Part shown: one piece after another, positions 2,168-35,178 of the stretch
Position numbering within the stretch: the first letter of the stretch is position 1
How the letters are laid out: the number at the start of each line of letters is the position of its first letter
IMG/VR virus record: IMGVR_UViG_3300020388_000009
Strand: one strand, 5' to 3'
Source: a virus
Lineage: Duplodnaviria > Caudoviricetes
Length of the DNA stretch: 64,000 bases
Position numbers and translations under genes: made by a program
Notes under the pieces: model-generated
What the model was told of the DNA's origin: nothing
Seen by the model: the letters and a program-made list of their open reading frames with translations, nothing else
Databases searched by the model: none

Positions 2168-2171
2168 AGAT

Positions 2172-3856: not shown

Positions 3857-3885
3857 ATCTCTAACTTCTAATAATTAATAATACT

Positions 3886-4491: not shown

Positions 4492-4511
4492 ATGCTTGCT
4501 TCTCTTATATA

Positions 4512-5076: not shown

Positions 5077-5191
5077 CTGTAACCTTTTTTTGTTTATGTT
5101 TGCTTTTGCGTGTATACTTTTTTCTGTTCCGTTCAATGGTAGGACGCGAGGCATCCCATATGTCTTGTTGTTCTATCTTAACTTTCTTCAT
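5069..5191 (-). CDS. 40 aa basic protein with an ArfA-like C-terminal motif
   Basis: Not in ORF track: MKKVKIEQQDIWDASRPTIERNRKKYTRKSKHKQKKVTDE. Confidence 0.55.
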   Translation of the reverse strand: MKKVKIEQQDIWDASRPTIERNRKKYTRKSKHKQKKVTDE

Positions 5192-5237
5192 AATCTCTTC
5201 ATGCGAGCTTTTCGCGAGCTCAAACCGGAGGCCACAC

Positions 5238-5720
5238 TTATAACCGCCTCACTCTCCATAACCGCCTCACGTAACTCAAATGGAACACACTAATCAATAC
5301 GGCCTGGATCGCTTCAAACCAGAACACTCCTCCTGGTATTACTAATAATATGTACCATGTCACTGATATATCTCCTAACCAATCAAACCTTTTATCCGTA
5401 CGCATTAGATACGTAGATGATAAGAAGAATATGATTGCCAATATATTATGCAGCATCCAATAGTCTACACAATCAAATAATGCTACACCTACCAATGCAT
5501 ATGCAGGTACACTCCATTTAATATCTCTATGCAACCACATTGCCCAGGCCATCATTGATGTTGCTAATGTGAAATATATTCCTCCAAACACATAGTAATT
5601 ACTATAGGCAGGAAGTATACCGTATACTAATGGCCATATTAGCACATATGCTATTGGATAAATACATGCTATAAATCTGAGCCTTAATTGGCTTTTGCTT
5701 GCTGTTGTAATTTTTTCCAT
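5238..5720 (-). CDS. Multi-pass membrane protein
   Basis: About 5-6 hydrophobic segments in 160 aa. Confidence 0.65.
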   Translation of the reverse strand: MEKITTASKSQLRLRFIACIYPIAYVLIWPLVYGILPAYSNYYVFGGIYFTLATSMMAWAMWLHRDIKWSVPAYALVGVALFDCVDYWMLHNILAIIFFLSSTYLMRTDKRFDWLGDISVTWYILLVIPGGVFWFEAIQAVLISVFHLSYVRRLWRVRRL

Positions 5721-5721
5721 G

Positions 5722-5997
5722 CTAATCCTCTACTCCATAACCTTCGTCATATGATTTTGGCGTATCACTAGTGTAATAATTATCATCTTGCATTCCGGAG
5801 TAGTTAATAAACCTCATATGGTCTCTTGTAACGTAATGTTCAGGCTGATTATCCCTTAATCGTATGAAGTTATCATATGATATTTGTATTTGCACTACAT
5901 CTAATGCATTAGCTGGTTCTCTTAACCAGTACTGAATAATTTCTCCTCGTTCAAGTAACTCTACATTAGTCTGCGTTACCCATACCATTACTTTCAT
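5722..5997 (-). CDS. Hypothetical protein
   Basis: 91 aa; ATGA overlap with the upstream gene. Confidence 0.6.
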   Translation of the reverse strand: MKVMVWVTQTNVELLERGEIIQYWLREPANALDVVQIQISYDNFIRLRDNQPEHYVTRDHMRFINYSGMQDDNYYTSDTPKSYDEGYGVED

Positions 5998-6215
5998 GAA
6001 AACTTCTCCTTAATTAATTTGCTTATCTTTTTTTCAATAGCATTACTTTGATTACATTTACGCCAATTTTTATATCCATTATCGGCAAATTCAACTGCAA
6101 TCTTTTTTGAATTATTACTGTACATAACTAGATACATTTCACTATCGTATATTACTTCACAACATACATAATGTGTTCTATGATCTTTGTATTCTTTTTT
6201 TTCTGTTATGATCAT
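5994..6215 (-). CDS. Hypothetical protein
   Basis: 73 aa; 4-bp overlaps on both sides. Confidence 0.55.
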   Translation of the reverse strand: MIITEKKEYKDHRTHYVCCEVIYDSEMYLVMYSNNSKKIAVEFADNGYKNWRKCNQSNAIEKKISKLIKEKFS

Positions 6216-6736
6216 TTCTTATCCTCCATATGCAAATACTTTAAGTAACGTTTATTCATATTATCATAGTACTTAGTCTTTGCTAATACTTTATGTGCTG
6301 TATTTAATGCCTCTCTAGTAGCTATATTAATTAAGAAGTAAGGAGCATGACTTCTAGCATTGAATCCGTTTATATCTAATTCATCATTAGGATTGAAACA
6401 AATACATTTCAAATGCGGATATCCATGTTCTTTCATTGTCTTATTAATATAATCTTGATAGCCTACTGTATCAAATTTTGATAATTGGTCATTAGATACC
6501 TGTACAAATAATGCGCTATCATATTCTGATTCATCATAGGCCTTCACCTTGTCTAGTAATGTATCTGCATTAGGATCAAACTTATCAATCATCAACTTAC
6601 CTTTATCTAATTCAGATCCAGCAAATGGACATGCTGGCATGCCTCCATATTCTTCTCTAGGCATTCTTATAAAATCAATGTACTTTAAAACCTTTTCTTT
6701 GAAATTTGTATAAGGGCATTTACTCATACTATTCAA
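6212..6736 (-). CDS. DUF1415-like protein
   Basis: MPACPFA motif, then FNPND and APYFLINI patterns. Confidence 0.45.
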   Translation of the reverse strand: MNSMSKCPYTNFKEKVLKYIDFIRMPREEYGGMPACPFAGSELDKGKLMIDKFDPNADTLLDKVKAYDESEYDSALFVQVSNDQLSKFDTVGYQDYINKTMKEHGYPHLKCICFNPNDELDINGFNARSHAPYFLINIATREALNTAHKVLAKTKYYDNMNKRYLKYLHMEDKK

Positions 6737-7247
6737 TAATAAATTTTAAAGTTTTTACTTCACTAACATGGCCATCTACAAATCTAGCTAGAGCTGAAAC
6801 GGTAACAGTATCGCCTTCCATACTTTGTACTGGAGCAAACATTGTATTAATCTCACCATCCATTGTACTATAACTTGCACCATTCACTGTCGGTACTTCA
6901 GCTCCATTGAACCAGGTAACATAACTAGTATCGTTATTCATATATAAATATCCGTTATCATTCAATGTCCAGTTCTGGTGAACGATATAACCTAATGTAT
7001 CACCTATCAACCAGTAATGAGAACTTGACCATTCAATCTTAGCCAACTCATATTCATTTTCTACTGCAGATACTTGACCTGATATACGATGTAATGTTTG
7101 CCAATCATATCCTAACTCCAAATGATAATAACCATTCTCATCAGCTGGTAGTTGAGCATCTAACTCGAACTCATGTCCTATAGGTATGATCTGCTCCTCA
7201 GAGCATGACGCTAATATGATACAACTTATAAACAACAACTTTTTCAT
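6729..7247 (-). CDS. Lipoprotein
   Basis: MKKLLFISCIILAS-C lipobox followed by an acidic SEEQ segment. Confidence 0.7.
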   Translation of the reverse strand: MKKLLFISCIILASCSEEQIIPIGHEFELDAQLPADENGYYHLELGYDWQTLHRISGQVSAVENEYELAKIEWSSSHYWLIGDTLGYIVHQNWTLNDNGYLYMNNDTSYVTWFNGAEVPTVNGASYSTMDGEINTMFAPVQSMEGDTVTVSALARFVDGHVSEVKTLKFIIE

Positions 7248-8257: not shown

Positions 8258-10312
8258 TTATGCTACTTCTAAAAATTTACTATTCATTGTCTTAGCCACT
8301 TCCGCAATCTTCGAAGTATCAATAAATTGAGCTTCTTTACCATACATCTTCTGGAAGTTTTCTTTATCACTACCATATGGAGAACCGGAACAAATGAAGT
8401 ATGATATAACTTTGATACCTTCTCTAACCATTTTCTTCACTTGCGCTCTTGTATGATTATAAGCTCCTTCTCCATAGTAACCTTCAAAGTATGGACAACC
8501 ATCACTCATGTTTACAAAATATGCATCCTTACCACGGCTGGCATCTAATATATCTTTCATGATAGCATCAAAACATAATCCTTCTGGAGTACTACCTGAT
8601 ACGCATAACATTGGAAAACATGTTTTGATTTGCGTCATACCATGCTTTCTACTATCATATGCAACTAACATAACTGCCTTACCATATCCTCTAGTATCAC
8701 CAAATGATGATCCGGCTCTCAAGCTAATCACACAATCCATATTCTCAATCATATCACATGCCTTCGCAATTGCAATTGCGGTCGTCATTGCATTCTGGAA
8801 ATTACCTCCGCTCATGGATCCACTATTGTCAATTGATATATGAATGATACCAGGATTATAAGCAAATGATTCTATCTTTTCAAATATAGCTTCTGCACCA
8901 AAACCTGCATTGGCAATCATTCGTTTATCAATTCTACCAGATCGAAGACGATTGAACTTTGTATTACGCTCTTCAGATCTAACTTTAAGCTTCTTACCTA
9001 ACATGATACCTTTACGCATACCATCCTTAACGGCTTTGCTATTATCTTTCCAAGATGACCACATTCCACTTTCAACTGTTTCCATTAATCTTTTAGTAAG
9101 ATTCTTAATAACAGTTACACTAGCTGTCTTACGATAATATGTACCTGCATATCTTTCTTGTTCATACTCAACATCTTTAACTTCAACACCACTCTCTTCC
9201 ATGGCCTGGATCTGTTCTAACAACTTTCTACTAACACCTGTCTTCTTAACTTCTCCTTTCTGGAACTTCTTTTGCTTCTCAATAGCCTTTTCTAATTGAG
9301 ACTTTAAACGATCGCTTAACAAATCTAAGTCCTGAGGCATTTCATTGTTACCTTCTTCATCACCTTGGCCTTTCATAGCCTCATCTCCTTCTGCTATAGA
9401 TCCATCATCTTCTTGCATGCTACCGCCATCATCAAACTTCTCACCTTTCTTCTCACGCTTGTTTTTAGAAACAATATCTTCTGGAGATCCTTCACCATCT
9501 TCTGCTTTAGGTTCATTAACTTCTGGCTTCTTCATAGCCGGAATATGTTGCTCGCAACAATTAAATAAATCCCAAGCTAATTCTAAGGCGTCTTGAGTAC
9601 TTTTAAGACGACTAATATTCTTAAGATCGATTAACTTCCATATGAAAGCCATATTCATTACATCTAATCTACGATTTGGATTAGTTAAGTTAACAATACG
9701 GAACATATATGAATCCCAATCATATGAAGTATACTCATCAGACTTCAAACCTTTATCAATAACTTTAGCATTGAAATACTTATCATACAATGATGCATAA
9801 TAACCTTGGTAACCTGGAGCATTTTTATATACCCAAGCATCTATTCTACGATCCTCTATCACATTCAAAAGATCTTTTAAGATAGGCTTAACATAATCAC
9901 TTGCTTGCCATCTAGATTCGATGGTCTCATGCTTCTCAGCCAATGTCTCCATTACCTGGTCATGTCGTTGAATCCAATTATCTAATTGGTGCAACACTTC
10001 AAAATCAGTTAACTTAACATGCGATCCTTCATGTAATGCTAATCCTACAGCTGGATCAAAATCTTTATCCTTAAGGCTGGCTGATATAGTAACTACATCA
10101 CCATCCGTATAACTATCACCGGATTGGGTGTAACGAACTGGAATGTCTTTACCAGTTACAATTCTTACAAAGTTACCAATAGCTCTACGGTAACCTGCTA
10201 ACTTCATTGGATCTTTACCTTTAGGTTTAAAAGGTAACAAACCCGTTAGGATATCACGATCATCATCGTAAAAATCTTCTCCTAACCAATAACTCGAATT
10301 ATTATGCTTCAT
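8258..10312 (-). CDS. VWA-domain protein with N-terminal HExxH metallopeptidase-like domain (CobT-like)
   Basis: ALHEGSH and NVIEDRRID motifs; acidic linker; MIDAS motif IDNSGSM; MSDG. Confidence 0.8.
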   Translation of the reverse strand: MKHNNSSYWLGEDFYDDDRDILTGLLPFKPKGKDPMKLAGYRRAIGNFVRIVTGKDIPVRYTQSGDSYTDGDVVTISASLKDKDFDPAVGLALHEGSHVKLTDFEVLHQLDNWIQRHDQVMETLAEKHETIESRWQASDYVKPILKDLLNVIEDRRIDAWVYKNAPGYQGYYASLYDKYFNAKVIDKGLKSDEYTSYDWDSYMFRIVNLTNPNRRLDVMNMAFIWKLIDLKNISRLKSTQDALELAWDLFNCCEQHIPAMKKPEVNEPKAEDGEGSPEDIVSKNKREKKGEKFDDGGSMQEDDGSIAEGDEAMKGQGDEEGNNEMPQDLDLLSDRLKSQLEKAIEKQKKFQKGEVKKTGVSRKLLEQIQAMEESGVEVKDVEYEQERYAGTYYRKTASVTVIKNLTKRLMETVESGMWSSWKDNSKAVKDGMRKGIMLGKKLKVRSEERNTKFNRLRSGRIDKRMIANAGFGAEAIFEKIESFAYNPGIIHISIDNSGSMSGGNFQNAMTTAIAIAKACDMIENMDCVISLRAGSSFGDTRGYGKAVMLVAYDSRKHGMTQIKTCFPMLCVSGSTPEGLCFDAIMKDILDASRGKDAYFVNMSDGCPYFEGYYGEGAYNHTRAQVKKMVREGIKVISYFICSGSPYGSDKENFQKMYGKEAQFIDTSKIAEVAKTMNSKFLEVA

Positions 10313-10333
10313 ATCTAACTTTTTAATTATAAT

Positions 10334-10365
10334 TAAAAATAAGTAAAAAATCTCATTCTACCAAA
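10334..10365 (-). promoter_or_regulatory. Early promoter
   Basis: TTTG-N20-TATTTTTA with AAAAAAAGCTGCCAAAAGA upstream. Confidence 0.75.
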
Positions 10366-10475
10366 TCTTTTGGCAGCTTTTTTTAAAAAAGTTTACGGAG
10401 GACTTATATCTATTGCATGCGGTTTAATTAAAATCCGGTCATGAACGCCTCCCTAAACTCTACCAAAGAATATTA

Positions 10476-11645
10476 TTATGCCATTTCATCTACATCAACA
10501 CCTTCTGTATTGAATTGGTCTTCTGATTCGGTACTACCAACAAACTTTTGTACCACTTGCTTCATAAAGGTTCTTTCAGAATCAACGCCACCATCTTCAT
10601 CAAAGAATGGATAGATACAAACTTCGGCTGCTTCAGCTAATGTAAAACCATCTTCTAACAATCCGGCTAACTCTACACTGATACGAGTACTAATTGCATT
10701 TGATACTCTAGGTGCATCATTCTTAACTTCTGATCTGGTCATGGAAGCTATCTCTGCAATTGCATCTACCTGCTCTTGCGTTACACCTGGATGAAGATCC
10801 TTAAGCAATGCTGCCTCTTGGTCTTTATTCAATGTATCCATTTCAACAATAATGAAACGATCAACTAATGCTCTATCCATTGCTCTAGTCGCTGTATACT
10901 CATTACCAATATTAGCAGTGGCAACAAACGTTACACCTTCGGCCACATCAATGGTTGGTGCATCTTCATGTTCATCTAGTCTCAAATATCTTTGACCTTG
11001 ATCTAATACGGTCATCAATATATTCCAAGCTTCTGGATGCGCTCTAGATATCTCATCTAACAATATAATAGAATCCTTAGTCTGGATCGCTTTAACAAAT
11101 AACGATTCACTAAAGGTTGTACCTTCATCTTTCTTGAAATGCGTATTACCAATCAATGTACCTCTTGGATCTTGAGTAGCACCTAAATTGAAATAGAAAT
11201 GCGGACGATCCAAAGCCTCTACCAATTTCTTAGCGGCCATCGTCTTACCACAACCGGCGGCTCCAGTCATCATAATGTTCTTACCACGCATAGCTGATCG
11301 AATCAAATACTTCCATTTAAGGTCTGGCATTACCAATGTCTTAGGACGAAGGTCTACAGACTCATTATGGATAAAATTCAATACTGGATCAGCATTGATC
11401 ATTTCAGAAGCTTTAACTTCTGGTTCAGATGGAGTAGGATTCACATCTGAAAATTCACTTAATGGTTTTCTCATACATCGACCAGTTTCGGTATCATACT
11501 TAAGACATTGACCATTAGCTAATGCTAAATCAACCATGTCCTCTCTAACATAAATATCTGTTCTAACTGAATCTTCAACATCTCTTAACTCTGTAAATCC
11601 GTTAGAGTTTTTAACTGGCTTAAGGTAAACAAATTCTTTTTTCAT
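10476..11645 (-). CDS. MoxR/CbbQ/CobS-type AAA+ ATPase
   Basis: Walker A GAAGCGKT, Walker B LLDEISR, ATAN, ALVDRF; adjacent to the VWA gene. Confidence 0.85.
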   Translation of the reverse strand: MKKEFVYLKPVKNSNGFTELRDVEDSVRTDIYVREDMVDLALANGQCLKYDTETGRCMRKPLSEFSDVNPTPSEPEVKASEMINADPVLNFIHNESVDLRPKTLVMPDLKWKYLIRSAMRGKNIMMTGAAGCGKTMAAKKLVEALDRPHFYFNLGATQDPRGTLIGNTHFKKDEGTTFSESLFVKAIQTKDSIILLDEISRAHPEAWNILMTVLDQGQRYLRLDEHEDAPTIDVAEGVTFVATANIGNEYTATRAMDRALVDRFIIVEMDTLNKDQEAALLKDLHPGVTQEQVDAIAEIASMTRSEVKNDAPRVSNAISTRISVELAGLLEDGFTLAEAAEVCIYPFFDEDGGVDSERTFMKQVVQKFVGSTESEDQFNTEGVDVDEMA

Positions 11646-13703: not shown

Positions 13704-13735
13704 TCAATATATAAAATTTATTTCATGAATCCAAA
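13704..13735 (-). promoter_or_regulatory. Early promoter for the DpdL-like gene
   Basis: TTTG-N20-TATATTGA. Confidence 0.6.
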
Positions 13736-14274
13736 TGATTTTTAACTTTATTCCAATATGCAACTGTTGCTGGTTTGTAGATACCTTTTGGTCCACCATT
13801 CCAACATCTTGCAATTTCTTCAGGTGTTACTAAATTATAGTAATCTCGATAAATGTTAAACATTTCTATAGATCTTTGTCTACACCATCGGTCTTTGTAT
13901 TCATATCTTTTTTCGGAACCTTGACGTTTAAGGATCCTATTAACATCTCGTACCATTGTGCGTCGTATTTGTAAAGCCCCAACAGCATCTTCTTCAACAC
14001 AGTAAGCATCGTCATTTCCTCCACTTTCTATTTGTATTAATGCATTAATAATTCTATCATCTGGTTCTTGGTTAAAATGATATCTAGGACGTTCTAAATC
14101 ATTTATGATTGATTTTAAACTATCCATTTGATATTGATAATATATCTTATCTCGTATAATTTGATTTTCTAAATCAAGTATTTGATCTTCATAACTTATT
14201 AATCCTAATGCTGCTGGGCATGCTAATAATATTGTGATCATACAAATTTTAATCTCGCAAGGTAACTTTTTCAT
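13723..14274 (-). CDS. Lysozyme-fold muramidase (i-type/destabilase-like) with N-terminal hydrophobic anchor
   Basis: LIQIESGG, AVGALQI, ARCWNGGP. Confidence 0.75.
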   Translation of the reverse strand: MKKLPCEIKICMITILLACPAALGLISYEDQILDLENQIIRDKIYYQYQMDSLKSIINDLERPRYHFNQEPDDRIINALIQIESGGNDDAYCVEEDAVGALQIRRTMVRDVNRILKRQGSEKRYEYKDRWCRQRSIEMFNIYRDYYNLVTPEEIARCWNGGPKGIYKPATVAYWNKVKNHLDS

Positions 14275-15042: not shown

Positions 15043-15474
15043 TTACCACTTTCTACAAGACCAATATCCTGCAGTTGTACGATCTTTTTTCTGGTCACAC
15101 TTATGTCGTGCTCTAAATGATTTTCTGGCACCTGGATTATCTTTTTTGATAACCATACCTTTCTGGCCAAAGTTAACTTTTTTAACGTTACCTGTCTTAG
15201 GATCTTTAACATATACCTTAAACTTTTTAACATCGCCTTGCATAGGTTTACCTAACTTAACTTTACGTCCTTGGTACTCTGCTTCTTGGAATATTACAGG
15301 TTCATCATGTTCTAATATTTCTAATCCTAATGCTTCATTTCTAAATAACACAGTCTCTGATACTTTAACACATTTGTCTTTACCATCTTCGGTACCTGCA
15401 TATCGGTATCCTTTCCAACATGCTTTACCATCAGCGCCTTTTACTTTTTCACCTAATATATCTTTTAGTTTCAT
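15043..15474 (-). CDS. Conserved phage basic protein (DUF6321-like) with MKLKDILxE leader
   Basis: ACWKGY...C; KKFKVYVK...KKVNFG...ARKSFRARHKC...AGYWSCRKW. Confidence 0.7.
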   Translation of the reverse strand: MKLKDILGEKVKGADGKACWKGYRYAGTEDGKDKCVKVSETVLFRNEALGLEILEHDEPVIFQEAEYQGRKVKLGKPMQGDVKKFKVYVKDPKTGNVKKVNFGQKGMVIKKDNPGARKSFRARHKCDQKKDRTTAGYWSCRKW

Positions 15475-15692
15475 TTTTTAGCTCCTGCAAATTTTTCTAG
15501 GCCAGCTATACCAAAACATCCTAACACTACAAGTGTGAATGAATCATATATGAATTCATTGATAATTAGATCTTTACCTACGTACCCGGTAACTAAGTCT
15601 AACACGGCGAATACTACCATTACTAGGAATGCAATAAAACCTACCACATTCTTTTCATTCCAATCGTTATTGTCTTTAAATATATTCCACAT
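15471..15692 (-). CDS. Two-TM small membrane protein (holin-like)
   Basis: Two hydrophobic helices and a basic C-terminus. Confidence 0.55.
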   Translation of the reverse strand: MWNIFKDNNDWNEKNVVGFIAFLVMVVFAVLDLVTGYVGKDLIINEFIYDSFTLVVLGCFGIAGLEKFAGAKK

Positions 15693-16364: not shown

Positions 16365-16387
16365 TTCATTTTCCTTTTATATAAATA

Positions 16388-16729
16388 TTAGAATGCTTCC
16401 ATAACAATCTCGTCAATTGCATCTTGAACTTCTTTTCTTGTAGCTTCCATAGTCATCATAATATTGGCCTGGAATCGCTTAGCTTCCTCATTGTTATTGA
16501 AGATAACTAATGTAGGCACGACTACTATTTTATATTCACTAGCCCATCTTGAATCCGCAGTTATATCCACTCTTTGAGTTTCACAATCCGTTAGTTTGCT
16601 TAGCCATGTGACATCATTTGTTTTATTGAAACTAGCGTTAAATTCTACTACTACCATACCTTCTGGAAAGTCTTGGCTCAATGCAAACGTGGACACGAAT
16701 AGCAATATTATTAGTAATAACTTTTTCAT
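16388..16729 (-). CDS. Exported thioredoxin-fold protein lacking CxxC
   Basis: Signal peptide ...FALS-Q; VVVEFNASFN replaces WCxxC; YKIVVVPTLVIF cis-Pro loop retained. Confidence 0.7.
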   Translation of the reverse strand: MKKLLLIILLFVSTFALSQDFPEGMVVVEFNASFNKTNDVTWLSKLTDCETQRVDITADSRWASEYKIVVVPTLVIFNNNEEAKRFQANIMMTMEATRKEVQDAIDEIVMEAF

Positions 16730-16737
16730 AATGATTC

Positions 16738-17022
16738 CTATTTTAAATTATCAATTTTATCTTCCATTCGAATCATCTGCTCTTTGATCTCCTTCACATC
16801 CTCTTGGGTGGTCATGATAGTTTGTCGTATCAATTGATCTTTCATATCATATTCCATACGAGTAATTTCTGGAGCAGATGGTAATGGAAGGGCTTTGGCT
16901 TCTTCAATATCTGCCTGTAATGCAAACCACATACCAACTACAGTTGCAATACCTACTGCAATACCTGCTAACGTCTTTATACTTATTTGAAACGACGTAT
17001 CTTCATTTAATTCTTTAGCCAT
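16738..17022 (-). CDS. Single-TM coiled-coil protein
   Basis: TLAGIAVGIATVVGMWFAL followed by a heptad-rich tail. Confidence 0.65.
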   Translation of the reverse strand: MAKELNEDTSFQISIKTLAGIAVGIATVVGMWFALQADIEEAKALPLPSAPEITRMEYDMKDQLIRQTIMTTQEDVKEIKEQMIRMEDKIDNLK

Positions 17023-17031
17023 GATTATCTC

Positions 17032-18069
17032 CTAAAATATTACGTAATTGACACCTACGCTAAAGTTGTGCCAATCCCTGTTCCAGTATTTATTATATCT
17101 TCCTTCTACAAATACTCCTAAACTCTTATTAAATCTATACCCAAATATAAGTCCTGCGGAATAATCTAACCATTGACCATTATTATATTTATGATATGAA
17201 TATTCGCTATCTGTATCAATATGATAAGGCATTACGTTACCCCATGAATGAAACCAGAAGTCTTTTGTAAAATGATAATAATCAAAACCTAACACAGCAG
17301 AATACTCTACTGTATTAGATAATGCATTTCTTTGATCTTCAACGTAATCGTTAATCACTTCTGGTACAACAACTTCTTCCCATACTTCTTGACTATTAGC
17401 AACCACATTACCATCCGGATCTAAATAAGTCCCATCTAATGTTATATTGTATCCCTCTTGAAGTGCCAGATATGTATAATGTAAACTTCCATTGGCCAAC
17501 ACCCAGTCTACCAGGGGGTCAAATCCATATGGTTCAGCAAGTCTTTGCACCGCCCCTATATTGAACGATAACTTACCTAATTCGCCTATTTGAAACCTGA
17601 ATCTTTCAGAGGCTTCAAAGTATTTTATATCGGCAAATCCATCTTCCAAGTACTCAACCTTACTCACCCATTTATCTGCAACATACCTTACAAAGTGATG
17701 CTGATTGATATAATCTATACCTAATCGTCTCACAAAATCAGTTTCAAACAAATATTCAAAACCATCTACCCGGCCTAATGTTGCTGCATCTGAATAAGAT
17801 CTTTCTGTACCATTATAGAATGTATTCGCTCTATTCTCATATCCAAATCGTTTTATCTTTCTGATACCAATTGATATACTGTAATCGAAAGGTGTTTCAA
17901 TAACTTGCTCTTCTAATGTTCCAGACGTAACTGACCATACTTGAGCATCTCCTAATGATGTACCACCATTAACTGCTGCATAAAATGTTGAATATTTAAA
18001 TATATTCTTAACGCCTTGCGCATTACTTAGTAACGGTAAACATAAAAATAATACTAATAACTTTCTCAT
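17032..18069 (-). CDS. Predicted outer-membrane beta-barrel protein
   Basis: Signal peptide ...LSNA-Q; aromatic-rich amphipathic strands; terminal beta-signal FSVGVNYVIF. Confidence 0.7.
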   Translation of the reverse strand: MRKLLVLFLCLPLLSNAQGVKNIFKYSTFYAAVNGGTSLGDAQVWSVTSGTLEEQVIETPFDYSISIGIRKIKRFGYENRANTFYNGTERSYSDAATLGRVDGFEYLFETDFVRRLGIDYINQHHFVRYVADKWVSKVEYLEDGFADIKYFEASERFRFQIGELGKLSFNIGAVQRLAEPYGFDPLVDWVLANGSLHYTYLALQEGYNITLDGTYLDPDGNVVANSQEVWEEVVVPEVINDYVEDQRNALSNTVEYSAVLGFDYYHFTKDFWFHSWGNVMPYHIDTDSEYSYHKYNNGQWLDYSAGLIFGYRFNKSLGVFVEGRYNKYWNRDWHNFSVGVNYVIF

Positions 18070-21011
18070 TGCTTAATTACCTTTTTATTGATTGATTTGC
18101 CATCATATGTTATAACAAAATTATATAAACCTGATGCCAATTGAGATACATCTAATTGATTTATTTTTGATTTTAATTGATCTTCTTTAACTCGTATTAC
18201 AAGTTTACCAGTTATATCATATACATCTATACTTGCTTGAACATTTGTTGCAATGGTAATCATATCATTAGTTGGATTAGGATATATAATAATATCAGCT
18301 TGTTCTAACAATTCATCAATATCTAATCCATTTTGCTCTTGGCAATAATCATATAAGCCTTCACATTTGATATCCCATTCGAGATCACAACAAGAAGGAT
18401 CGACATTTATTACCCATGCATAACAAGAATCATTTAACCAATATGGATCACCTGGTCCCATCCCTGCTCCACCACAACCTGCATCATATAGACAGCTACC
18501 ATTATCTTGATTTGCTATAGGATCATAGTTATAAGCTTCACTATCCATACAACCTTCTAATACATCGACACAAGAAAAGTCTTCTGTGTTTGCTTCTGAA
18601 TCATAATTTAATGCCGATGGATCAGTACAACCTAAAACAACATCAACGCATGAAAAGTCTTCTGTGTTAGCTAAAGGATCAAAATTAAATGCTGAAGGAT
18701 CTGTACAGCCATATAATACTGGAATGCAAGATTCGTTATCTGTATTAGCTACTGGGTCATAATTAAATGCTGTTGTGTCAGTACAACCAAATATATAAGG
18801 AATGCAGTTATCACTTGGCATATTAGCTAATTCATTATAATTCCACATTGTTGGATCCATACAACCATAAACTTCAGGTATACATGATTCATCATCGACA
18901 TTTGCATCTACATTATAATTAAATGCCATTGGATTTGTACAACCATAAATAGGATAAATACAATTATCATTATTTACATTTGCTGTAGGATCAAAATTTA
19001 AAGCCAATTCATCTATACATCCAAAATATAAACATGATTCATTATCATTTAAGTTAGCTAATGGCTGGTAATTCCATGCTTCTTCATCCGTACAGCCTAT
19101 AATCCATGGTTGACAAGAACCATCATCAGTGTTAGCTGGGTTCATATAATTATACCCATAAAGAGAAGGATCGGTACATCCATACACTACTGGTTCACAT
19201 GCTATAATATCTGGGTCATATGTGTTAGCTTCAGGATCATAATTAAACATTACAATGTCTGGATTAGATAAATTAGTAGGGTAAATACATCCATATACTA
19301 TAGGCTCGCAAATATCACCACAATAAGGCATTGCTGAATAAACGTTCCAAAATGGTGGTTGGAATGGCTGTAATGCACCCGCTCCATTGCCTTCAAAAGG
19401 ATTAACCCCTCCTGACAATAATTCAACTCCATCATCTCTTACAATTGTAAAAGAATTATGCATTGTTTGAAATAAAACTTCTTGAATTGGTTGCTGAGGA
19501 GCTTGTACTTGAAAATAATATACTTCAACAGACTTATCAGATTCTAATACTATGTCCCATGATTGTTCTTCTATGCCAGGCCCCAATGTATATATCCATT
19601 CTTGTTCTCCGTGGAATACAGCTAAATAAGAATCGCCCCAACCGTCAGATGCATCATCTTCAATTGTAATAGTGTAATTGCAAGGAGATATAAGTTCTAA
19701 TGAATTAGCATTGGGATCATAATTAAATTGACTATCATCAGTACATCCATATATTTTTTCTGTTTGGCAATCTTCCAGAACATTGACATTAGCTGCTAAA
19801 TCATATTCTAAGAAGTTATTATCCATACAACCATAGATAGGTGGTATTTCACAATAAGGTAACCAAATAGGACCTGAATAAGTAGCACTACCAAATCCTG
19901 CTTCTGGTAAAGTCCATACTGTGTCTAATCCATCACCACATGGTTCTGTATCTGCTAATATTACGAAATTACCATCTGTTCCACCATTATACAAAGATCC
20001 TTGCATTCCATCACCGTAGTCATCACTTAATATAAGTTCAACACCTGAAGTAGGAACACATAGTTCATATGGTATAGTTGTATTAGCTTGCGAATAATCA
20101 TATTCTCCTCCTACAACATTGGCTACTGGTTGACCGTTACTAATATCTGTAAGTATCCATCCTGTTTCTCCTGGAAATTGATCCAATGTAATTTGAAGTA
20201 TCATTTTTGCTTCACCATCAGAACATACTCCGTTAACACAAGAACCATTATCAGCTTCTGCTAAAGGATTATAATTAGGCGATCCCGGATCAGTACATCC
20301 AAATATAGGAAATTCACATGTAAAGTTTTCTACATTAGCTTCCGGATCGAAGTTTAATGCTGTATCATTTGTACAACCTTCTACAACTGGTAGGCATGAA
20401 CCATCGTCTGTATTGGCAGTATCATTAAAATTAAAAGCAGAAGAGTCTGTACAACCTAAAATTTCTGCATTAGGATCGGGACAATCACCTTCATCCCAAT
20501 TAAATTCTTCACAATCAAAATAAACAGGATTTCCTAGATAAGAATAAATTCCATTGTCACAATAACCATCACCAATCCAACTAGTAATATTAGTTACATC
20601 AGAACCATTACAATCAAGTAAAGGATATTGACAAGAATCATTATCAACATTTGCATTTTCATTATAATTTAATGCTAAACTATCTGTACAACCTTCTATG
20701 TCTACAGAACTACAGTCTCCCAATAAAAATGAACCTGCACCACCTTGTAAATCTCCTATGGCCCAAGAAATTTCTCCTGGGTAAGATCCGCCACCTACTT
20801 CAATATTATTACATTCATTTAAATTAACACATATTGTATCAACTGCTTCTGCTCCGCTTGCAAGTGTTATGGAATTATAACCTACTGTTAAAGTGTTACC
20901 GTTCCATCCATCGCCATATGAATCGTACATATTAACTACTAAATTGCTACAGTCTTGACCATAGATAGTAGTTGTAAATAATAATATAAATAATAAAAAT
21001 AATTTTCTCAT
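18066..21011 (-). CDS. 981 aa Cys/Asp-rich repeat protein with T9SS type A C-terminal sorting domain
   Basis: Signal peptide ...TIYG-Q; about 16 GCTD-x-A-x-NY-x-P-x-AN-xx-DGSC repeats; CTD IYPNPT...VYDITGKLV...LASGLY...KKVIKQ. Confidence 0.85.
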   Translation of the reverse strand: MRKLFLLFILLFTTTIYGQDCSNLVVNMYDSYGDGWNGNTLTVGYNSITLASGAEAVDTICVNLNECNNIEVGGGSYPGEISWAIGDLQGGAGSFLLGDCSSVDIEGCTDSLALNYNENANVDNDSCQYPLLDCNGSDVTNITSWIGDGYCDNGIYSYLGNPVYFDCEEFNWDEGDCPDPNAEILGCTDSSAFNFNDTANTDDGSCLPVVEGCTNDTALNFDPEANVENFTCEFPIFGCTDPGSPNYNPLAEADNGSCVNGVCSDGEAKMILQITLDQFPGETGWILTDISNGQPVANVVGGEYDYSQANTTIPYELCVPTSGVELILSDDYGDGMQGSLYNGGTDGNFVILADTEPCGDGLDTVWTLPEAGFGSATYSGPIWLPYCEIPPIYGCMDNNFLEYDLAANVNVLEDCQTEKIYGCTDDSQFNYDPNANSLELISPCNYTITIEDDASDGWGDSYLAVFHGEQEWIYTLGPGIEEQSWDIVLESDKSVEVYYFQVQAPQQPIQEVLFQTMHNSFTIVRDDGVELLSGGVNPFEGNGAGALQPFQPPFWNVYSAMPYCGDICEPIVYGCIYPTNLSNPDIVMFNYDPEANTYDPDIIACEPVVYGCTDPSLYGYNYMNPANTDDGSCQPWIIGCTDEEAWNYQPLANLNDNESCLYFGCIDELALNFDPTANVNNDNCIYPIYGCTNPMAFNYNVDANVDDESCIPEVYGCMDPTMWNYNELANMPSDNCIPYIFGCTDTTAFNYDPVANTDNESCIPVLYGCTDPSAFNFDPLANTEDFSCVDVVLGCTDPSALNYDSEANTEDFSCVDVLEGCMDSEAYNYDPIANQDNGSCLYDAGCGGAGMGPGDPYWLNDSCYAWVINVDPSCCDLEWDIKCEGLYDYCQEQNGLDIDELLEQADIIIYPNPTNDMITIATNVQASIDVYDITGKLVIRVKEDQLKSKINQLDVSQLASGLYNFVITYDGKSINKKVIKQ

Positions 21012-21295
21012 AATTCTATTCCAAAATTAAATAACATTAATCGGAATCGTTTGCAGCCATTACGGTCGCATGGACAATAGTATGACTCGAATAATGTAAA
21101 TGTTCCTATTCGTATTGTTACATCATACCGCTCTTTCTTGTTACCATACTTCCAAGAATTAATAAAGTTCCAACTTCTTTTTTGAATAGATTTTTTGGCC
21201 TTTGCGGCAGTAACTGCTTTTTTATACTTACGCTTCTTTGCTACTTTCTTCACTTCTGATGCACTCTTTCTTACTTTTTTCTCTGCTGTTGCCAT
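21008..21295 (-). CDS. Lys/Ala-rich basic protein
   Basis: KKVAKKRKYKKAVTAAKAKK N-terminus; ATGA overlap with the T9SS cargo gene. Confidence 0.6.
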   Translation of the reverse strand: MATAEKKVRKSASEVKKVAKKRKYKKAVTAAKAKKSIQKRSWNFINSWKYGNKKERYDVTIRIGTFTLFESYYCPCDRNGCKRFRLMLFNFGIEL

Positions 21296-23202: not shown

Positions 23203-23244
23203 ACGTTAACCTTTTTCGATTTAATATAAATATGCAGTTGTAAC

Positions 23245-27769: not shown

Positions 27770-28687
27770 TTAAGAATTTCCATTTGCAGTTATATGTTGT
27801 AGCTTTGCATCAGTTGATGCAGGATCTTGATCAAACCATTTTTCTGTTTTAGTTTTTTTAACTACTGCACGTCCTTCTAATTTATTCCAATCCTGTTCTG
27901 GCCGTACATTTAAATTGGTTGACCATGCTCCTTCAATAGTTGGAACTTTAACTCCTAGCTCATCGGCCATACTTATAAATGCATTTATATCTTTAGGAAA
28001 ACATGAACCTCCAAAACCTAATTTTCCATCAGGCCCAGGGACATTTAAATGAGAATCGCCAATACGTTGATCTGCTGTAAAGCCGGCTAGAGCTTGTTTC
28101 CAATTGGCTCCTACTGCATCGCTTACTTGTTTCATTTCATTCATGATTGAAACTTTACTAGCAAAAAATACATTATTCATATATTTTATCAATTCCGCGG
28201 TTATAGTATCTGTCTCTATAATGTAACAATGTTCAAATCGTTCGCGAAATAACTTTGCTACACGCTTAGTTAATCGTTTTGCACCACCTAAGATTATACG
28301 AGATTGTGTTAAGAAATCTAATTTTGCTGTACGTTCAGTCAAGAATTCCGGATTAAAGATTATGTTGAGTTTTGGAAATTGTTTTATAAAATTATTAACA
28401 GATCCCGGTACCATTGTAGATTTTAAAATGATAACGTTATTACGATTTTTATTTTTATAAGATATTTCCTTTAAAGCCTTTTCTACTATATCTAAACTTA
28501 TAGATCCATCTTCTTGCATAGGAGTTGGTACTGCTACAAATATACAATCACATTCTAATACTTCTTCAATCGTATTAAGATTACGCTTAGGATCTTTATC
28601 ATGAATTCGAATCTCATGAGTAGGAGAAAATCCGAATGCAACAGAATTACCTACAAATCCATTACCTATAATTCCAATTTTATTCAT
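27770..28687 (-). CDS. UDP-glucose/GDP-mannose dehydrogenase family (short form)
   Basis: GNGFVG, ILKST, NPEFL, GFGGSCFPKD. Confidence 0.85.
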   Translation of the reverse strand: MNKIGIIGNGFVGNSVAFGFSPTHEIRIHDKDPKRNLNTIEEVLECDCIFVAVPTPMQEDGSISLDIVEKALKEISYKNKNRNNVIILKSTMVPGSVNNFIKQFPKLNIIFNPEFLTERTAKLDFLTQSRIILGGAKRLTKRVAKLFRERFEHCYIIETDTITAELIKYMNNVFFASKVSIMNEMKQVSDAVGANWKQALAGFTADQRIGDSHLNVPGPDGKLGFGGSCFPKDINAFISMADELGVKVPTIEGAWSTNLNVRPEQDWNKLEGRAVVKKTKTEKWFDQDPASTDAKLQHITANGNS

Positions 28688-28694
28688 TTGCTTC

Positions 28695-29555
28695 CTAATT
28701 ATTTTTTAAAAATTCTTCTATATACTCATTTAAGAGTTCTTTTGGCTCATATCCAACTTCTTGAGTTTTTGATATATCCGCTTTTGTAGTCCATGCTTCA
28801 CCTAATCGAGCTGGAATATAAGTTGTTTTACATTTAAACATATCTGCTAGTTCATTTATTGAATGGTTCCTGCTAGTTCCTAAATTATAAATTTCACCTT
28901 TATATTCACCTTTGCTAAGACAAATCATACCATTAGATATATCAAACACATGCGTAAAGTCTCTTCGTTGATCACCAGTTCCGGTAATTGTCAATGGTTC
29001 ATTAGCATTATACTGTCTTTCAAATATACCAATAACTGTTGCATATGTTCCTTCCCATGGTTGTCTAGGACCGTATACATTGAAAAATCTAGTAGATACT
29101 GTAGACATGTTATAAATATCTGAATACATTTTTAATATTTCTTCACCTGACCATTTAGTAAATGCATATGGATTAAGGTGAGGGCCAGCTTCGGCAGAAC
29201 TACTAGCTGCATATATTATTTTTGCTCCACACCGTTTTGCTAATTCACATACTTGTACAGTTCCTAATGTATTTGCTTTAAAATATGATACTGGATCTAG
29301 AAAACTAGGCTGTATTCTAGACAATCCAGCGAGGTGGAATATCAAATCAAAATTTAGATTTTGATATTTAATTTTATCTAGATTATTAATATCATCAATA
29401 ATATACTCAACTCCTTCTTCTTGATAATCACGATTACTCGAATTTGAACATAAATTATCAATTACTGTAATATTGTAATTACCTTCTTTCTTAAGAATTT
29501 TTACTAGATTAGATCCTACAAATCCTAATCCGCCGGTGACTAACACGTTTTGCAT
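28695..29555 (-). CDS. NAD-dependent NDP-sugar epimerase/dehydratase
   Basis: TGGLGFVG, YAFTK, RFFNVYGP, RDFTHV. Confidence 0.9.
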   Translation of the reverse strand: MQNVLVTGGLGFVGSNLVKILKKEGNYNITVIDNLCSNSSNRDYQEEGVEYIIDDINNLDKIKYQNLNFDLIFHLAGLSRIQPSFLDPVSYFKANTLGTVQVCELAKRCGAKIIYAASSSAEAGPHLNPYAFTKWSGEEILKMYSDIYNMSTVSTRFFNVYGPRQPWEGTYATVIGIFERQYNANEPLTITGTGDQRRDFTHVFDISNGMICLSKGEYKGEIYNLGTSRNHSINELADMFKCKTTYIPARLGEAWTTKADISKTQEVGYEPKELLNEYIEEFLKNN

Positions 29556-29566
29556 TTTATTTCCTT

Positions 29567-30790
29567 TTAATTGTTATGTATTAAATTATTTTCATATGTT
29601 TCTAAACTATGAATTGTTACTTGTAAATTTTCTATTTCAAAATGAGTTGGTTCAATTAATATTGCTTCCCATAGTTGTTCATCATTGGCAAGTATTTCTG
29701 ATAATGTTTGTATAATTCTAAAATCGTTATTGCTGAATCGATTACCATCTATTTCAACTAAGATATCATTCTGTTTTTCATTATCAAAAGGTTTTATTTT
29801 ATCTAACAGATCATAATGGGTATTTATTTGTTCTCGCTTTATATATGAATTATAATCACAATCAACATATATTGTACTACACCATGGTTCTAGCGTCTCT
29901 AACAACTGATCATTACAATTCTTAATTATGAATCCTATATCATACTTAGGAGGAACAATAGGTTTCATTAACGCATCATGTTTACAAAAATGTCCCCATT
30001 TACGAATAAACTCTCTAGTTGATTTTTGATTTTGTTTTAACCATTCATCCGTTTCTCTGTTCTTCATAAACACTTCTCCATCCGGATTTCTTTTAGCGCC
30101 ATCCGCAAATCGGCTACCTCTACATGTCATATGATATACACAACCTTCCCATGTTTGAATAAATTTAATTCCATTTAATTGAAACCGGTTAAATATATCT
30201 GTATCTTCTTTTGATTGTGGAGCAAATATAGGATCGTGGCCGCCTATCTTTTGAAAGTCCTTTTTCCAAAATGCCCATGGGGCAAATATACCTTCCGTTG
30301 TTTTATTTACTCGATCAGCTTTTGTGTCACGCATATACCGAAGTAATTTATCTTCATCAAATTCTTCAGGCTCTATACCAAAATCAACAAGTATCTTTTC
30401 AGGACCGTCCGGATGTAAAGGCGGTTCGATTCTAGTTAAAGATACAATAATATTTTCTTTAAGATGCCATTCAATTGAATCAATAGCTCCTGGACATAAA
30501 TACATATCTGCATGATATATCATACATATGTCATGTGAAGCAACTTCATTAACTAATCTATCATATAAAATGGTATGTCCTAATCTAGTCGGTCCTTCAT
30601 TTCGTATCGCCTTAAAATTAGAATCTGTTTGCATCATTTCTTGACACCAATCCCATGTACCATCATTTGAAAAATCATCTGCTACACATATTTCTACTGT
30701 ATGATTGCCTTGGTTTTTTCTTATAGAATCGTAAGACCATTTAAGATACTTAAGATTATTTCTACCTGGTTGTATTAAACTAATTTTCAT
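29567..30790 (-). CDS. Glycosyltransferase family 2
   Basis: ADDFSNDGT, HADM, EDTD. Confidence 0.8.
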   Translation of the reverse strand: MKISLIQPGRNNLKYLKWSYDSIRKNQGNHTVEICVADDFSNDGTWDWCQEMMQTDSNFKAIRNEGPTRLGHTILYDRLVNEVASHDICMIYHADMYLCPGAIDSIEWHLKENIIVSLTRIEPPLHPDGPEKILVDFGIEPEEFDEDKLLRYMRDTKADRVNKTTEGIFAPWAFWKKDFQKIGGHDPIFAPQSKEDTDIFNRFQLNGIKFIQTWEGCVYHMTCRGSRFADGAKRNPDGEVFMKNRETDEWLKQNQKSTREFIRKWGHFCKHDALMKPIVPPKYDIGFIIKNCNDQLLETLEPWCSTIYVDCDYNSYIKREQINTHYDLLDKIKPFDNEKQNDILVEIDGNRFSNNDFRIIQTLSEILANDEQLWEAILIEPTHFEIENLQVTIHSLETYENNLIHNN

Positions 30791-31665
30791 TGTAACCTTG
30801 TTTTTACGTTTGTACCATGTATCGGCTTAACAAATGTAGATTCATCATCTTCTGGTAATCTCCCCCATTTCTCAATAAATTTTCTTGTACTTTCTTGTTC
30901 AATACGTGCTAAGCGGTCCGGACGTTTATTGATATTATCATCAGGAAATCTAGATGCTCTTGACGAAAAATGCCATTGTACTGATTTAGTAATCATTTTA
31001 AATTCATATCCTTCTAATTGCATTCGTATAAATAAATCTTTGTCTTCCCAATATGCTGGTGCAAATAATGGATCATTTCCTCCTATCCATTCATAATCAG
31101 CTTTACGACAAAAGAATCCGGCACCGCCTGCCTTTCTTACAATTGAATCGTTTTCAGCTGAAAATTGAGTTGCCCATTCATCAAAATACTTACTATTAAA
31201 ATTATGATGGAATTCTCCAAATTCATCTATTGGTACAAATACTGTACCAGGTCTATACCATGGATCATTTGGAAATATTTTTGGTTGTATTCTAAATGAC
31301 GATGCTATAAGTCTAACTCCTGGTTCTATATCATCGTATAATTTTAACAACTCAATGTCTTGGTTAGGTGCTATCCACATATCAGCATGAATTATATTTA
31401 CAAATTCAGTATTTGATTGATGTACACAAATATCCATACCTCCGCCAATTCCGCGTGGCACTTTATTCGATTCTATTATAGGTGTAAGATTTAATTTAGC
31501 TTTATTTTCTTCTAACCATTCATTAGTACCATCTGTACAATTCTCGGCATGTACGATTATAGGCATATCATTGTAATATGCATTCTGCCTTACTGAGTCA
31601 ATTGCCAATCTAAGATAAGATAGATTATTAAATGATGATATACATGTTGTTATTTTATGTTTCAT
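30787..31665 (-). CDS. Glycosyltransferase family 2
   Basis: ENCTDGT, HADM, WEDKDL; promoter-like TTAG-N20-TATATTGA at 31669-31700. Confidence 0.8.
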   Translation of the reverse strand: MKHKITTCISSFNNLSYLRLAIDSVRQNAYYNDMPIIVHAENCTDGTNEWLEENKAKLNLTPIIESNKVPRGIGGGMDICVHQSNTEFVNIIHADMWIAPNQDIELLKLYDDIEPGVRLIASSFRIQPKIFPNDPWYRPGTVFVPIDEFGEFHHNFNSKYFDEWATQFSAENDSIVRKAGGAGFFCRKADYEWIGGNDPLFAPAYWEDKDLFIRMQLEGYEFKMITKSVQWHFSSRASRFPDDNINKRPDRLARIEQESTRKFIEKWGRLPEDDESTFVKPIHGTNVKTRLQ

Positions 31666-31696
31666 ACTTCAATATAACTAATTTTTTACAGACTTC

Positions 31697-35175: not shown

Positions 35176-35178
35176 ATT

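What the first reader, a model, noticed from the sequence alone, without database searches (positions are those of the whole stretch)
16388..21295. Phage-encoded T9SS surface-display operon: Cys-rich cargo, OM barrel, membrane anchor and CxxC-less thioredoxin
Seen: overlapping or tightly spaced genes encode (i) a 981 aa protein with a signal peptide, about 16 GCTD disulfide repeats and a type A T9SS CTD, (ii) a 345 aa signal-peptide protein ending in a beta-signal (VNYVIF), (iii) a single-TM coiled coil and (iv) an exported Trx fold. They sit among phage late genes. Established: the type A CTD routes proteins through the Bacteroidota type IX secretion system to the cell surface. Inference: the phage uses the host T9SS to place an adhesin-like protein on infected cells, with its own barrel partner and folding helper. 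Possible roles are superinfection exclusion, grazer evasion or aggregation with new hosts. I know of no described phage system like this.
Basis: partly seen in the sequence, partly recalled or inferred. Interest (0 to 1): 0.9.

Follow-up and report, generated by a model that had tools for sequence, protein, structure and literature searches.

The report
Phage T9SS cargo beside envelope trio
An uncultured marine phage of flavobacteria carries a cysteine-rich protein tagged for its host's type IX secretion system, but the barrel, membrane anchor and inactive thioredoxin next to it form a separate three-gene set that many phages keep beside their lysis genes without any such cargo.

Summary
Five tightly packed minus-strand genes (16388-21295) encode:
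- a small basic protein;
- a 981-aa Sec-signal protein with 16 two-Cys repeats and a genuine type A T9SS sorting domain (PF18962 55 bits, TIGR04183 47 bits);
- a 14-strand outer-membrane barrel;
- a single-TM protein;
- an exported thioredoxin fold without CxxC.

- Barrel, TM protein and Trx form a conserved trio. About 160 loci of two other phage lineages (a podovirus group and a large-phage group) have it with no cargo.
- In three lineages the trio sits beside holin and endolysin genes.
- Cargo relatives in marine Flavobacteriales genomes never have the trio next to them.
- The barrel shows no profile similarity to PorV or PorP/SprF.

My best reading is that the trio is an undescribed envelope-spanning module of the lysis cassette, possibly spanin-like. 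The cargo is a T9SS-secreted add-on. In this barrel subfamily the cargo is always present, and the four genes can be exchanged as one block, so a subfamily-specific partnership is not excluded.

Phage T9SS cargo was reported before (Bellas 2020; de Jonge 2019). This scan has also noted the same module on other DNA.

The parts
21008..21295 (-). 95-aa Lys-rich small protein (K95), overlaps the cargo start by 4 nt; function unknown
   Evidence: ORF and translation; no family hit
18066..21011 (-). 981-aa Cys-rich T9SS cargo (P0001)
   Evidence: The family has more than 4170 members, nearly all with PF18962
20958..21011 (-). Cargo signal peptide (aa 1-18), Gln at +1
   Evidence: Read from the sequence. 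62 of 64 cargo homologues show a hydrophobic leader followed by x-[SAG]-Q
18492..20693 (-). Region holding the 16 two-Cys 'GCTD' repeats (aa 107-840), interrupted by three non-repeat 'D.YGDGW'-type domains
   Evidence: Regex and Cys-position list
18069..18287 (-). Type A T9SS C-terminal sorting domain (aa 909-981)
   Evidence: PF18962 55.3 bits, TIGR04183 46.7 bits; YPNP, G.Y and K..VIKQ motifs visible
17032..18069 (-). 345-aa exported 14-strand outer-membrane beta-barrel with a roughly 65-aa helical insert (aa 185-249); family without Pfam/NCBIfam/PHROG model
16738..17022 (-). 94-aa N-in single-TM protein with a conserved periplasmic helical tail (LP.P..R.EYD.KD..IR.TI)
   Evidence: alignment A3, 24 sequences from three lineages
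16388..16729 (-). 113-aa exported thioredoxin fold without CxxC (cis-Pro-Thr kept)
15471..15692 (-). 73-aa two-TM holin-like protein (H2TM). In relatives it lies directly upstream of the cargo or barrel, or downstream of the Trx
   Evidence: no family hit
13723..14274 (-). 183-aa membrane-anchored or lipobox protein with weak lytic-transglycosylase/lysozyme similarity; candidate endolysin of this phage
   Evidence: NCBIfam EmtA E 3.3e-5 (far below its cut-off); PDB EmtA and lysozyme E 2e-4 to 6e-3
23225..23233 (-). Promoter-like motif ATATTTATA 30 nt before the 377-aa gene; the nearest such motif upstream of the block
16379..16388 (-). Next ATATTTATA motif, directly after the Trx stop and 23 nt before the next gene; a plausible end of the unit

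Best explanation
Two things lie side by side here.

(1) The cargo. The 981-aa protein is a phage-encoded substrate of the host's type IX secretion system. It would be exported by Sec, oxidised in the periplasm into a stalk of small disulfide-stapled repeats, and passed through the T9SS by its type A CTD. It would end up on the surface of, or be released from, an infected marine Flavobacteriales cell. It is the fast-evolving part: 44-73% identity and 720-1388 aa among relatives.

(2) The trio. The barrel, the single-TM protein and the redox-dead thioredoxin are a separate, older three-protein envelope module, with one protein each in the outer membrane, the periplasm and the inner membrane. It belongs to the phage lysis cassette. 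I infer that it bridges the envelope and helps breach or destabilise the outer membrane after holin and endolysin have acted, a job done by spanins in phages of Proteobacteria.

The cargo gene occupies the slot between the two-TM holin-like gene and the barrel. In this barrel subfamily it is always kept there.

Shown: the domain identities, the independence of the trio from the cargo, and its position beside lysis genes. Inferred: T9SS-dependent export, physical contact among the trio, and the lysis role.
For: Cargo and host:
- CTD hits are above curated cut-offs, and the CTD sits at the extreme C-terminus in all 64 cargo homologues next to a barrel.
- Leaders follow the Bacteroidetes Q-rule. 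Gln after the leader is invariant in A1 and A4, and 62 of 64 cargos show it. The rule is described in PMC5837995.
- Cellular cargo relatives lie mostly in marine Flavobacteriales, Cryomorphaceae and Saprospiraceae MAGs. Five genomes of that order, two of them holding cargo relatives, have PorV and PorP/SprF.

Trio independent of the cargo:
- Podovirus clade: TM-Trx-barrel with 0 of 81 loci having a CTD gene. Large-phage clade: barrel-TM-Trx with 0 of 79.
- 57 cellular cargo loci have no barrel or TM protein nearby.

Lysis context:
- L001 has a Peptidase_M15_3 endolysin and a GTA_holin_3TM after the Trx.
- L176 has a PG_binding_1+Amidase_2 endolysin and a Phage_holin_4_1 directly after the Trx.
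- L082 has a GTA_holin_3TM three genes after the barrel.
- A lysis-type gene lies within 8 genes in 70/72, 54/81 and 61/79 loci of the three groups.
- L327 reads H2TM-cargo-barrel-TM-Trx-endolysin.

Folds and topology:
- Barrel: AF2 pLDDT 78 with 14 strands; best structural matches are CymA (Z 11.2) and OmpG (Z 10.7).
- Trx fold without CxxC.
- Conserved TM topology.
Against: - No experiment exists, and no cultured phage carries the trio.
- The lysis role rests on gene neighbourhood alone.
- In this window itself the recognised M15 endolysin and 3TM holin of the relatives are absent. Only a holin-like two-TM gene and a weak transglycosylase-like gene lie 0.7-2.7 kb downstream.
- The periplasmic tail of the TM protein (about 57 aa) is short for a spanin.
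- No known spanin uses a beta-barrel.
- In the short-barrel subfamily the cargo is never missing and stays next to the barrel even where TM-Trx have moved (L074, L077, L080). The four genes replace a cargo-less trio as one block in an otherwise similar backbone. This is also what a cargo-barrel partnership would predict.
Confidence: 0.45

Rival explanations
1. The barrel is the outer-membrane partner or anchor of the T9SS cargo, like SprF for SprB or PorV/PorQ for type A cargo. The TM protein and Trx help to fold or hand over the Cys-rich protein. The four genes would then be one surface-display system.
For: - Cargo and barrel overlap by 4 nt.
- The cargo is directly upstream of the barrel in 69 of 72 close loci; the other three are cut by a contig end. 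It is adjacent in 4 of 6 loci of the distant clade and within four genes in a fifth (L075), even where TM-Trx have moved.
- L327 shows the four genes swapped in as one block: barrel 61% identical to the window's but 32% to L176's, while the flanks are 78-90% identical to L176's.
- In L171, L173 and L198 the same slot holds five signal-peptide proteins, including a 245-aa CTD protein.
Against: - Homologous trios exist without cargo in about 160 loci, and cellular cargo relatives exist without a trio.
- No Pfam PorP_SprF or PorV hit in 28 barrel homologues.
- hhalign against PorP/SprF and PorV aligns the signal peptide only (13% and 9.5%), while the control gives 97.6%.
- The Trx lacks CxxC in all 24 members, so it cannot form disulfides.
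- Block transfer can be explained by recombination in the conserved flanks.
Confidence: 0.2
2. The trio is an envelope-remodelling system that does not take part in lysis. It could mediate superinfection exclusion or receptor masking, or act as a lysis-timing sensor comparable to T4 Imm/Sp or RI. The cargo would be an additional surface shield.
For: - All parts are envelope-targeted.
- Small single-TM and periplasmic proteins next to holins are typical of T4 lysis-inhibition and exclusion genes. This rests on established knowledge and was not tested here.
- The cargo is hypervariable, as expected for a protein in an arms race.
Against: Exclusion genes are usually sporadic and fast-evolving. 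Here the barrel, TM protein and Trx are 69-88% identical across 73 loci, and the trio is kept in three phage morphotype lineages, as expected of a core function.
Confidence: 0.2
3. The barrel is an auxiliary porin that improves nutrient uptake during infection, and the neighbouring genes are unrelated.
For: Structure searches give porin-like barrels (NanC, OmpG, CymA). BFVD lists other phage-encoded porin-like proteins.
Against: The barrel is strictly linked to the TM and Trx genes in three lineages and sits beside lysis genes. It was found in only 2 of 401 Flavobacteriales genomes: one match is a phage contig and the other a single stand-alone copy in cell-like context. It is therefore not a common host porin picked up as an auxiliary gene.
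Confidence: 0.05

Closest known systems
Phage-encoded T9SS CTD proteins: 'Cryophage' variable genes (Bellas et al. 2020, PMC7468147) and crAss-like BACON/T9SS sorting-domain ORFs (de Jonge et al. 2019, PMC6949934)
   Same: A phage gene carries a type A T9SS sorting domain. The gene is highly variable between phage variants. The phage is presumed to use the Bacteroidota host's secretion system.
   Different: Here the cargo is a Cys-rich repeat protein with no recognisable enzyme domain. It is found in an abundant marine T4-like lineage. It always sits in a fixed slot of the lysis cassette directly before a phage barrel gene.
Two-component spanins (lambda Rz/Rz1 type; Kongari et al. 2018, PMC6139136)
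   Same: There is an inner-membrane N-in single-TM protein with a helical periplasmic tail plus an outer-membrane partner. Both are encoded beside holin and endolysin genes.
   Different: The outer-membrane part is a 14-strand barrel, not a small lipoprotein. A third, periplasmic Trx-fold protein is present. There is no embedded or overlapping gene architecture. The periplasmic tail is short. No functional data exist.
T9SS cargo with an adjacent outer-membrane barrel (SprB/SprF of Flavobacterium johnsoniae; PorV as CTD shuttle, PDB 6h3i and 8gl6)
   Same: The cargo gene is followed directly by, and is translationally coupled to, an outer-membrane barrel gene.
   Different: From my own knowledge, SprF-type partners serve type B CTDs, whereas this CTD is type A. 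The phage barrel shows no profile similarity to PorP/SprF or PorV. PorV ranks only at Z 7.5 against 11.2 for generic barrels.
Redox-inactive thioredoxin folds
   Same: The Trx fold keeps its cis-Pro loop but has lost both active-site cysteines.
   Different: It is exported to the periplasm, encoded by a phage, and strictly linked to a membrane anchor and a barrel. I found no described counterpart.

Membership tests
T9SS type A CTD cargo (TIGR04183 / PF18962) | C-terminal sorting domain matching the family model above its curated cut-off, at the extreme C-terminus | tested here: met
   PF18962 55.3 bits (cut-off 27), residues 909-979 of 981; TIGR04183 46.7 bits (cut-off 23)
T9SS type A CTD cargo (TIGR04183 / PF18962) | N-terminal Sec signal peptide | tested here: met
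   Basic n-region, hydrophobic core and ..YG|Q cleavage-type motif read; 62 of 64 homologues have the same layout. No SignalP run was available
T9SS type A CTD cargo (TIGR04183 / PF18962) | Export depends on the T9SS of the host | not testable with these tools
   The host is uncultured. Only indirect support: cellular relatives lie in Flavobacteriales genomes, and sampled genomes of that order have PorV and PorP/SprF
PorP/SprF outer-membrane barrel (PF11751) | Sequence or profile similarity to the family | tested here: not met
   No PF11751 hit at E<=1 in 28 barrel homologues. hhalign of A2 against 11 PorP/SprF proteins gives probability 13%, signal peptide only
PorV (NF033710) | Sequence or profile similarity to the family | tested here: not met
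   hhalign gives 9.5%, signal peptide only. Positive control PorP/SprF vs PorV gives 97.6% over 278 columns
PorV (NF033710) | FadL-like 14-strand fold specifically resembling PorV | tested here: inconclusive
   PorV chain 6h3i_F scores Z 7.5; generic 14-strand barrels CymA and OmpG score Z 11.2 and 10.7
Outer-membrane beta-barrel protein (general) | Signal peptide, even number of long antiparallel strands, C-terminal aromatic beta-signal | tested here: met
   AF2 model with pLDDT 78 and 14 strands; Foldseek and VIA return outer-membrane barrels only; the protein ends in ..NYVIF
Thioredoxin (PF00085) as a thiol-disulfide oxidoreductase | Thioredoxin fold | tested here: met
   20 of 24 members hit PF00085 (best E 1.1e-7). 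The profile hits solved thioredoxins at E 7e-14 to 1e-6. P0004 itself scores 23.2 bits, just under the 23.5 cut-off
Thioredoxin (PF00085) as a thiol-disulfide oxidoreductase | CxxC active site | tested here: not met
   0 of 24 members have it; WCGPC is replaced by F/W-N-K-x-N
Two-component spanin | i-spanin: N-in single TM plus periplasmic coiled coil | tested here: inconclusive
   One TM and a conserved helical-looking tail of about 57 aa. No coiled-coil program was run and there is no family hit
Two-component spanin | o-spanin: small outer-membrane lipoprotein with a lipobox Cys | tested here: not met
   The outer-membrane component is a 345-aa barrel with an SPase I-type leader. Neither the barrel nor the Trx has a lipobox
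Two-component spanin | Encoded in the lysis cassette | tested here: met
   Holin and/or endolysin lie next to the trio in L001, L082, L176 and L327; counts are. In this window the link is only weak

The most novel reading that the evidence does not exclude
Marine Bacteroidota phages breach the outer membrane with a new kind of lysis device instead of lipoprotein spanins. It would consist of an inner-membrane anchor, a redox-dead periplasmic thioredoxin and a 14-strand outer-membrane barrel. One subfamily would have coupled this device to a hypervariable T9SS-displayed surface protein, for example to sense or block further phage adsorption before lysis.
Probability: 0.3. Interest if true: 0.8.

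Novelty: new variant of a known kind. Interest (0 to 1): 0.6.

Why it matters
How phages of Bacteroidota get through the outer membrane at lysis is poorly understood. [quoted passage not shown]

The trio is abundant. The barrel search gave 3584 relatives, many of them from Tara and JGI ocean metagenomes. It is strongly conserved and sits beside lysis genes in three phage lineages, so it is a concrete candidate for the missing function.

The cargo adds a well-sampled case of a phage using the host's T9SS. It has thousands of natural variants, which could be used to study what a phage gains by decorating an infected cell.

Tried and rejected
- Complex prediction of barrel + TM tail + Trx: no verdict (score 0.01). 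It is not used as evidence either way.
- First AF2 model from a shallow alignment: pLDDT 44.7, discarded. It was redone with 28 diverse homologues.
- tblastn of the cargo, four barrel variants and the TM protein against 50,697 GenBank phage records: no match. No cultured phage is therefore available.
- No whole genome is held for this window.
- Sigma-70 promoter and terminator scans: not above shuffled expectation.
- The total count of TATAAATA is at chance. Only the strand and intergenic bias of ATATTTATA is notable.
- Atlas look-ups for the cargo N-domain and the TM protein: unnamed clusters only, or weak leads (DUF7365, DUF2730).
- My first crude Q-rule regex undercounted and was replaced.
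- Pfam, NCBIfam and PHROGs gave nothing for the barrel, the TM protein, K95, or the 377-, 123-, 205- and 564-aa neighbours.
- Literature searches for a barrel- or Trx-containing lysis module found nothing.
- I considered a virion role for the barrel and rejected it because of the Sec leader, the Q-rule cleavage motif and the barrel fold.


Full report
**What is in the window.** All genes in the 64 kb lie on the minus strand. The window belongs to a large uncultured phage.
- It encodes a T4-type family B DNA polymerase (phrog_262, E 4e-195), clamp loader, GroEL, class II RNR, a DnaB-like helicase and CobS/CobT-like proteins. A polysaccharide gene island spans roughly 27.7-45.6 kb.
- The closest cultured polymerase is only 43% identical.
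- No whole genome is held for this window.

**The observation.** The block 16388-21295 holds five tightly packed ORFs.
- The 981-aa protein has a Sec-type leader, 52 cysteines and 16 Cys pairs. Twelve of the pairs fit a strict GCTD..A.NY..AN..D..C pattern.
- Its C-terminal domain scores 55.3 bits on PF18962 and 46.7 bits on TIGR04183, both well above the curated cut-offs.
- The 345-aa protein has a leader and ends in VNYVIF. With an alignment of 28 diverse homologues, AlphaFold2 gives a 14-strand barrel (pLDDT 78) with a helical insert.
- Foldseek and VIA-align return only outer-membrane barrels. CymA (Z 11.2) and OmpG (Z 10.7) are the best, and PorV scores Z 7.5.
- The 94-aa protein has one TM segment and a conserved periplasmic tail.
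- The 113-aa protein is a thioredoxin fold. 20 of 24 relatives hit PF00085, and the family profile hits solved thioredoxins at E 7e-14. None of the 24 has CxxC.
No structural gene was recognised near the block in this window.

**Host.**
- The residue after each leader is Gln. It is invariant in the barrel and Trx alignments and present in 62 of 64 cargos by a simple rule. This 'Q-rule' is described as specific to Bacteroidetes (PMC5837995).
- Cellular relatives of the cargo are proteins of about 1000-3268 aa, most of them ending in the CTD. They lie mostly in marine Flavobacteriales, Cryomorphaceae and Saprospiraceae genomes, with some in Marinimicrobia.
- Five Flavobacteriales genomes, two of them holding cargo relatives, all have PorV and PorP/SprF.
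- A marine flavobacterial host with a T9SS is the most likely.

**Synteny in close relatives.**
- The barrel has 3584 relatives in the big protein collection.
- 80 IMG/VR loci were fetched with it. In 72 loci with a full barrel, the TM protein and Trx follow in all 72. A CTD cargo precedes the barrel in 69; the other three are cut by a contig end.
- Barrel, TM protein and Trx are 69-88% identical to the window's. The cargo is 44-73% identical and 720-1114 aa long.
- In a more distant clade (L074, L077, L080) the order is TM-Trx-(x)-cargo-barrel.

**The trio is independent of the cargo.** A profile search of 1.8 billion representatives found 392 relatives. None of 28 diverse members has a Pfam family.
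- The 28%-identical homologue P0163 lies in a roughly 45-kb podovirus with a P22-type portal and SU10-type capsid. The order there is TM-Trx-barrel, and a GTA_holin_3TM follows three genes later.
- 0 of 81 loci of that clade have a CTD gene nearby. The TM gene is present in 69 of 83. Thirteen of the 14 without it start within about 600 nt upstream of the barrel gene; in the last (L112) a 409-aa single-TM ORF sits where the TM gene should be.
- A third clade of large phages (contigs up to 167 kb) has barrel-TM-Trx, again with 0 of 79 loci having an adjacent CTD.
- Conversely, none of the 57 cellular cargo loci has a barrel or TM protein.
- hhalign of the barrel family against PorP/SprF and against PorV aligns only the signal peptide (13% and 9.5%). 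The control PorP/SprF vs PorV gives 97.6%.

**The lysis context.**
- L001 (barrel 86% identical): the Trx is followed by a Peptidase_M15_3 endolysin and a GTA_holin_3TM.
- L176: the Trx is followed directly by a PG_binding_1+Amidase_2 endolysin and a Phage_holin_4_1.
- A two-TM holin-like protein (window 15471-15692) lies directly beside the module in many loci.
- A lysis-type gene lies within eight genes of the barrel in 70/72, 54/81 and 61/79 loci of the three groups.
- In this window the M15 endolysin and 3TM holin are absent. The two-TM gene lies 0.7 kb downstream, and a weak transglycosylase-like 183-aa gene lies 2.1 kb downstream.

Only 2 of 401 sampled Flavobacteriales genomes hold the barrel.
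- One match (G190:C32, L327) is a phage contig reading H2TM-cargo-barrel-TM-Trx-endolysin.
- Its flanks match the cargo-less L176: RNR 90%, H2TM 78%, endolysin 78%.
- Its barrel, TM protein and Trx match the window type (61, 73 and 49%) rather than L176 (32, 51 and 29%).
- The four genes were therefore exchanged as one cassette into the same slot.
- The short-barrel subfamily (345-360 aa) is never seen without cargo. Recombination in the conserved flanks can explain the co-transfer, but a subfamily-specific partnership between cargo and barrel remains possible.

**Mechanism I think most likely (confidence 0.45).**
- The cargo is exported by Sec and oxidised in the periplasm. It is then carried through the host T9SS to the surface or the medium.
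- The trio forms an envelope-spanning set in the lysis cassette and acts on the outer membrane after holin and endolysin have acted.
- Export, contacts among the trio and the lysis role are all inferences. The complex prediction gave no verdict.

**Rivals.**
- A dedicated display system for this subfamily: 0.2.
- Superinfection exclusion or lysis-timing control: 0.2.
- A nutrient porin: 0.05.

**Prior knowledge.**
- Phage-encoded T9SS CTD proteins were reported for 'Cryophage' (PMC7468147) and for crAss-like contigs (PMC6949934).
- I found no paper describing a barrel/Trx/TM module in lysis cassettes.
- After reaching this reading, I saw that this scan had noted the same module on other DNA. 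Two follow-up reports drew similar conclusions.

**Transcription unit.** A motif ATATTTATA lies 12-35 nt before ten gene starts in the window, including 23202 and 16364. The block may thus be the distal part of a unit running from about 23232 to 16388. That unit would also contain a 377-aa and a 123-aa unknown, an endonuclease (phrog_452) and K95. This is a lead, not a shown promoter.

Noticed in passing
window 1730, 13351, 16387, 23232, 24293, 26052, 27372, 27761, 45624, 60975 (minus strand): The motif ATATTTATA (ATATTTATT at 1730) lies in intergenic DNA 12-35 nt before gene starts; an eleventh copy at 62991 lies 79 nt before a start. The overall count of the core is at chance, but its strand and position are strongly biased. 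It is a candidate phage promoter.
   Followed up: partly
window 27770-45594: A long run of sugar-nucleotide and glycosyltransferase genes (UDP-glucose dehydrogenase, NAD-dependent epimerase/dehydratase, GT2 and GT-B types) sits inside a phage genome.
   Followed up: no
L171, L173, L198 (about 1300-7000): In these large phages the slot between the two-TM gene and the barrel holds five signal-peptide proteins in a row, one of them a 245-aa protein with a T9SS CTD. The slot seems to collect exported-protein genes.
   Followed up: no
L167:8206-8778 and about a dozen other clade-3 loci: A 136-242-aa ORF (183-193 aa in most loci) is inserted between the barrel and the TM gene in some large phages. 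The one I read, in L167, has a lipobox (..FFGC). It has no family hit.
   Followed up: no
L326 (G003:C35:9379-10593): A stand-alone 404-aa barrel homologue (E 5e-108) lies on an 11.5-kb contig of a Cryomorphaceae MAG, about 7 kb from prs/rplY/pth-like genes, with no TM or Trx gene. It was the only match among 17 genomes of that family. It may be a captured phage gene or a binning artefact.
   Followed up: partly
L001:21-3356, L003:405-4802: Large proteins without a signal peptide or CTD (1111 aa with 39 Cys; 1465 aa with 90 Cys), encoded near fibre-like genes, match the cargo. For the L001 protein the match falls in the 'GCTD' repeat regions.
   Followed up: partly
window 21008-21295 and L082:9092-9217: The small basic protein before the cargo shares a short S-W-K-[YW]-G..K..Y....IR stretch with the 41-aa ORF that follows the barrel in the podovirus clade. 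It may be a further recurrent neighbour.
   Followed up: no
window 8258-11645: CobT-like (684 aa) and CobS/AAA-like (389 aa) genes lie about 5 kb downstream of the block, as in many large marine phages.
   Followed up: no
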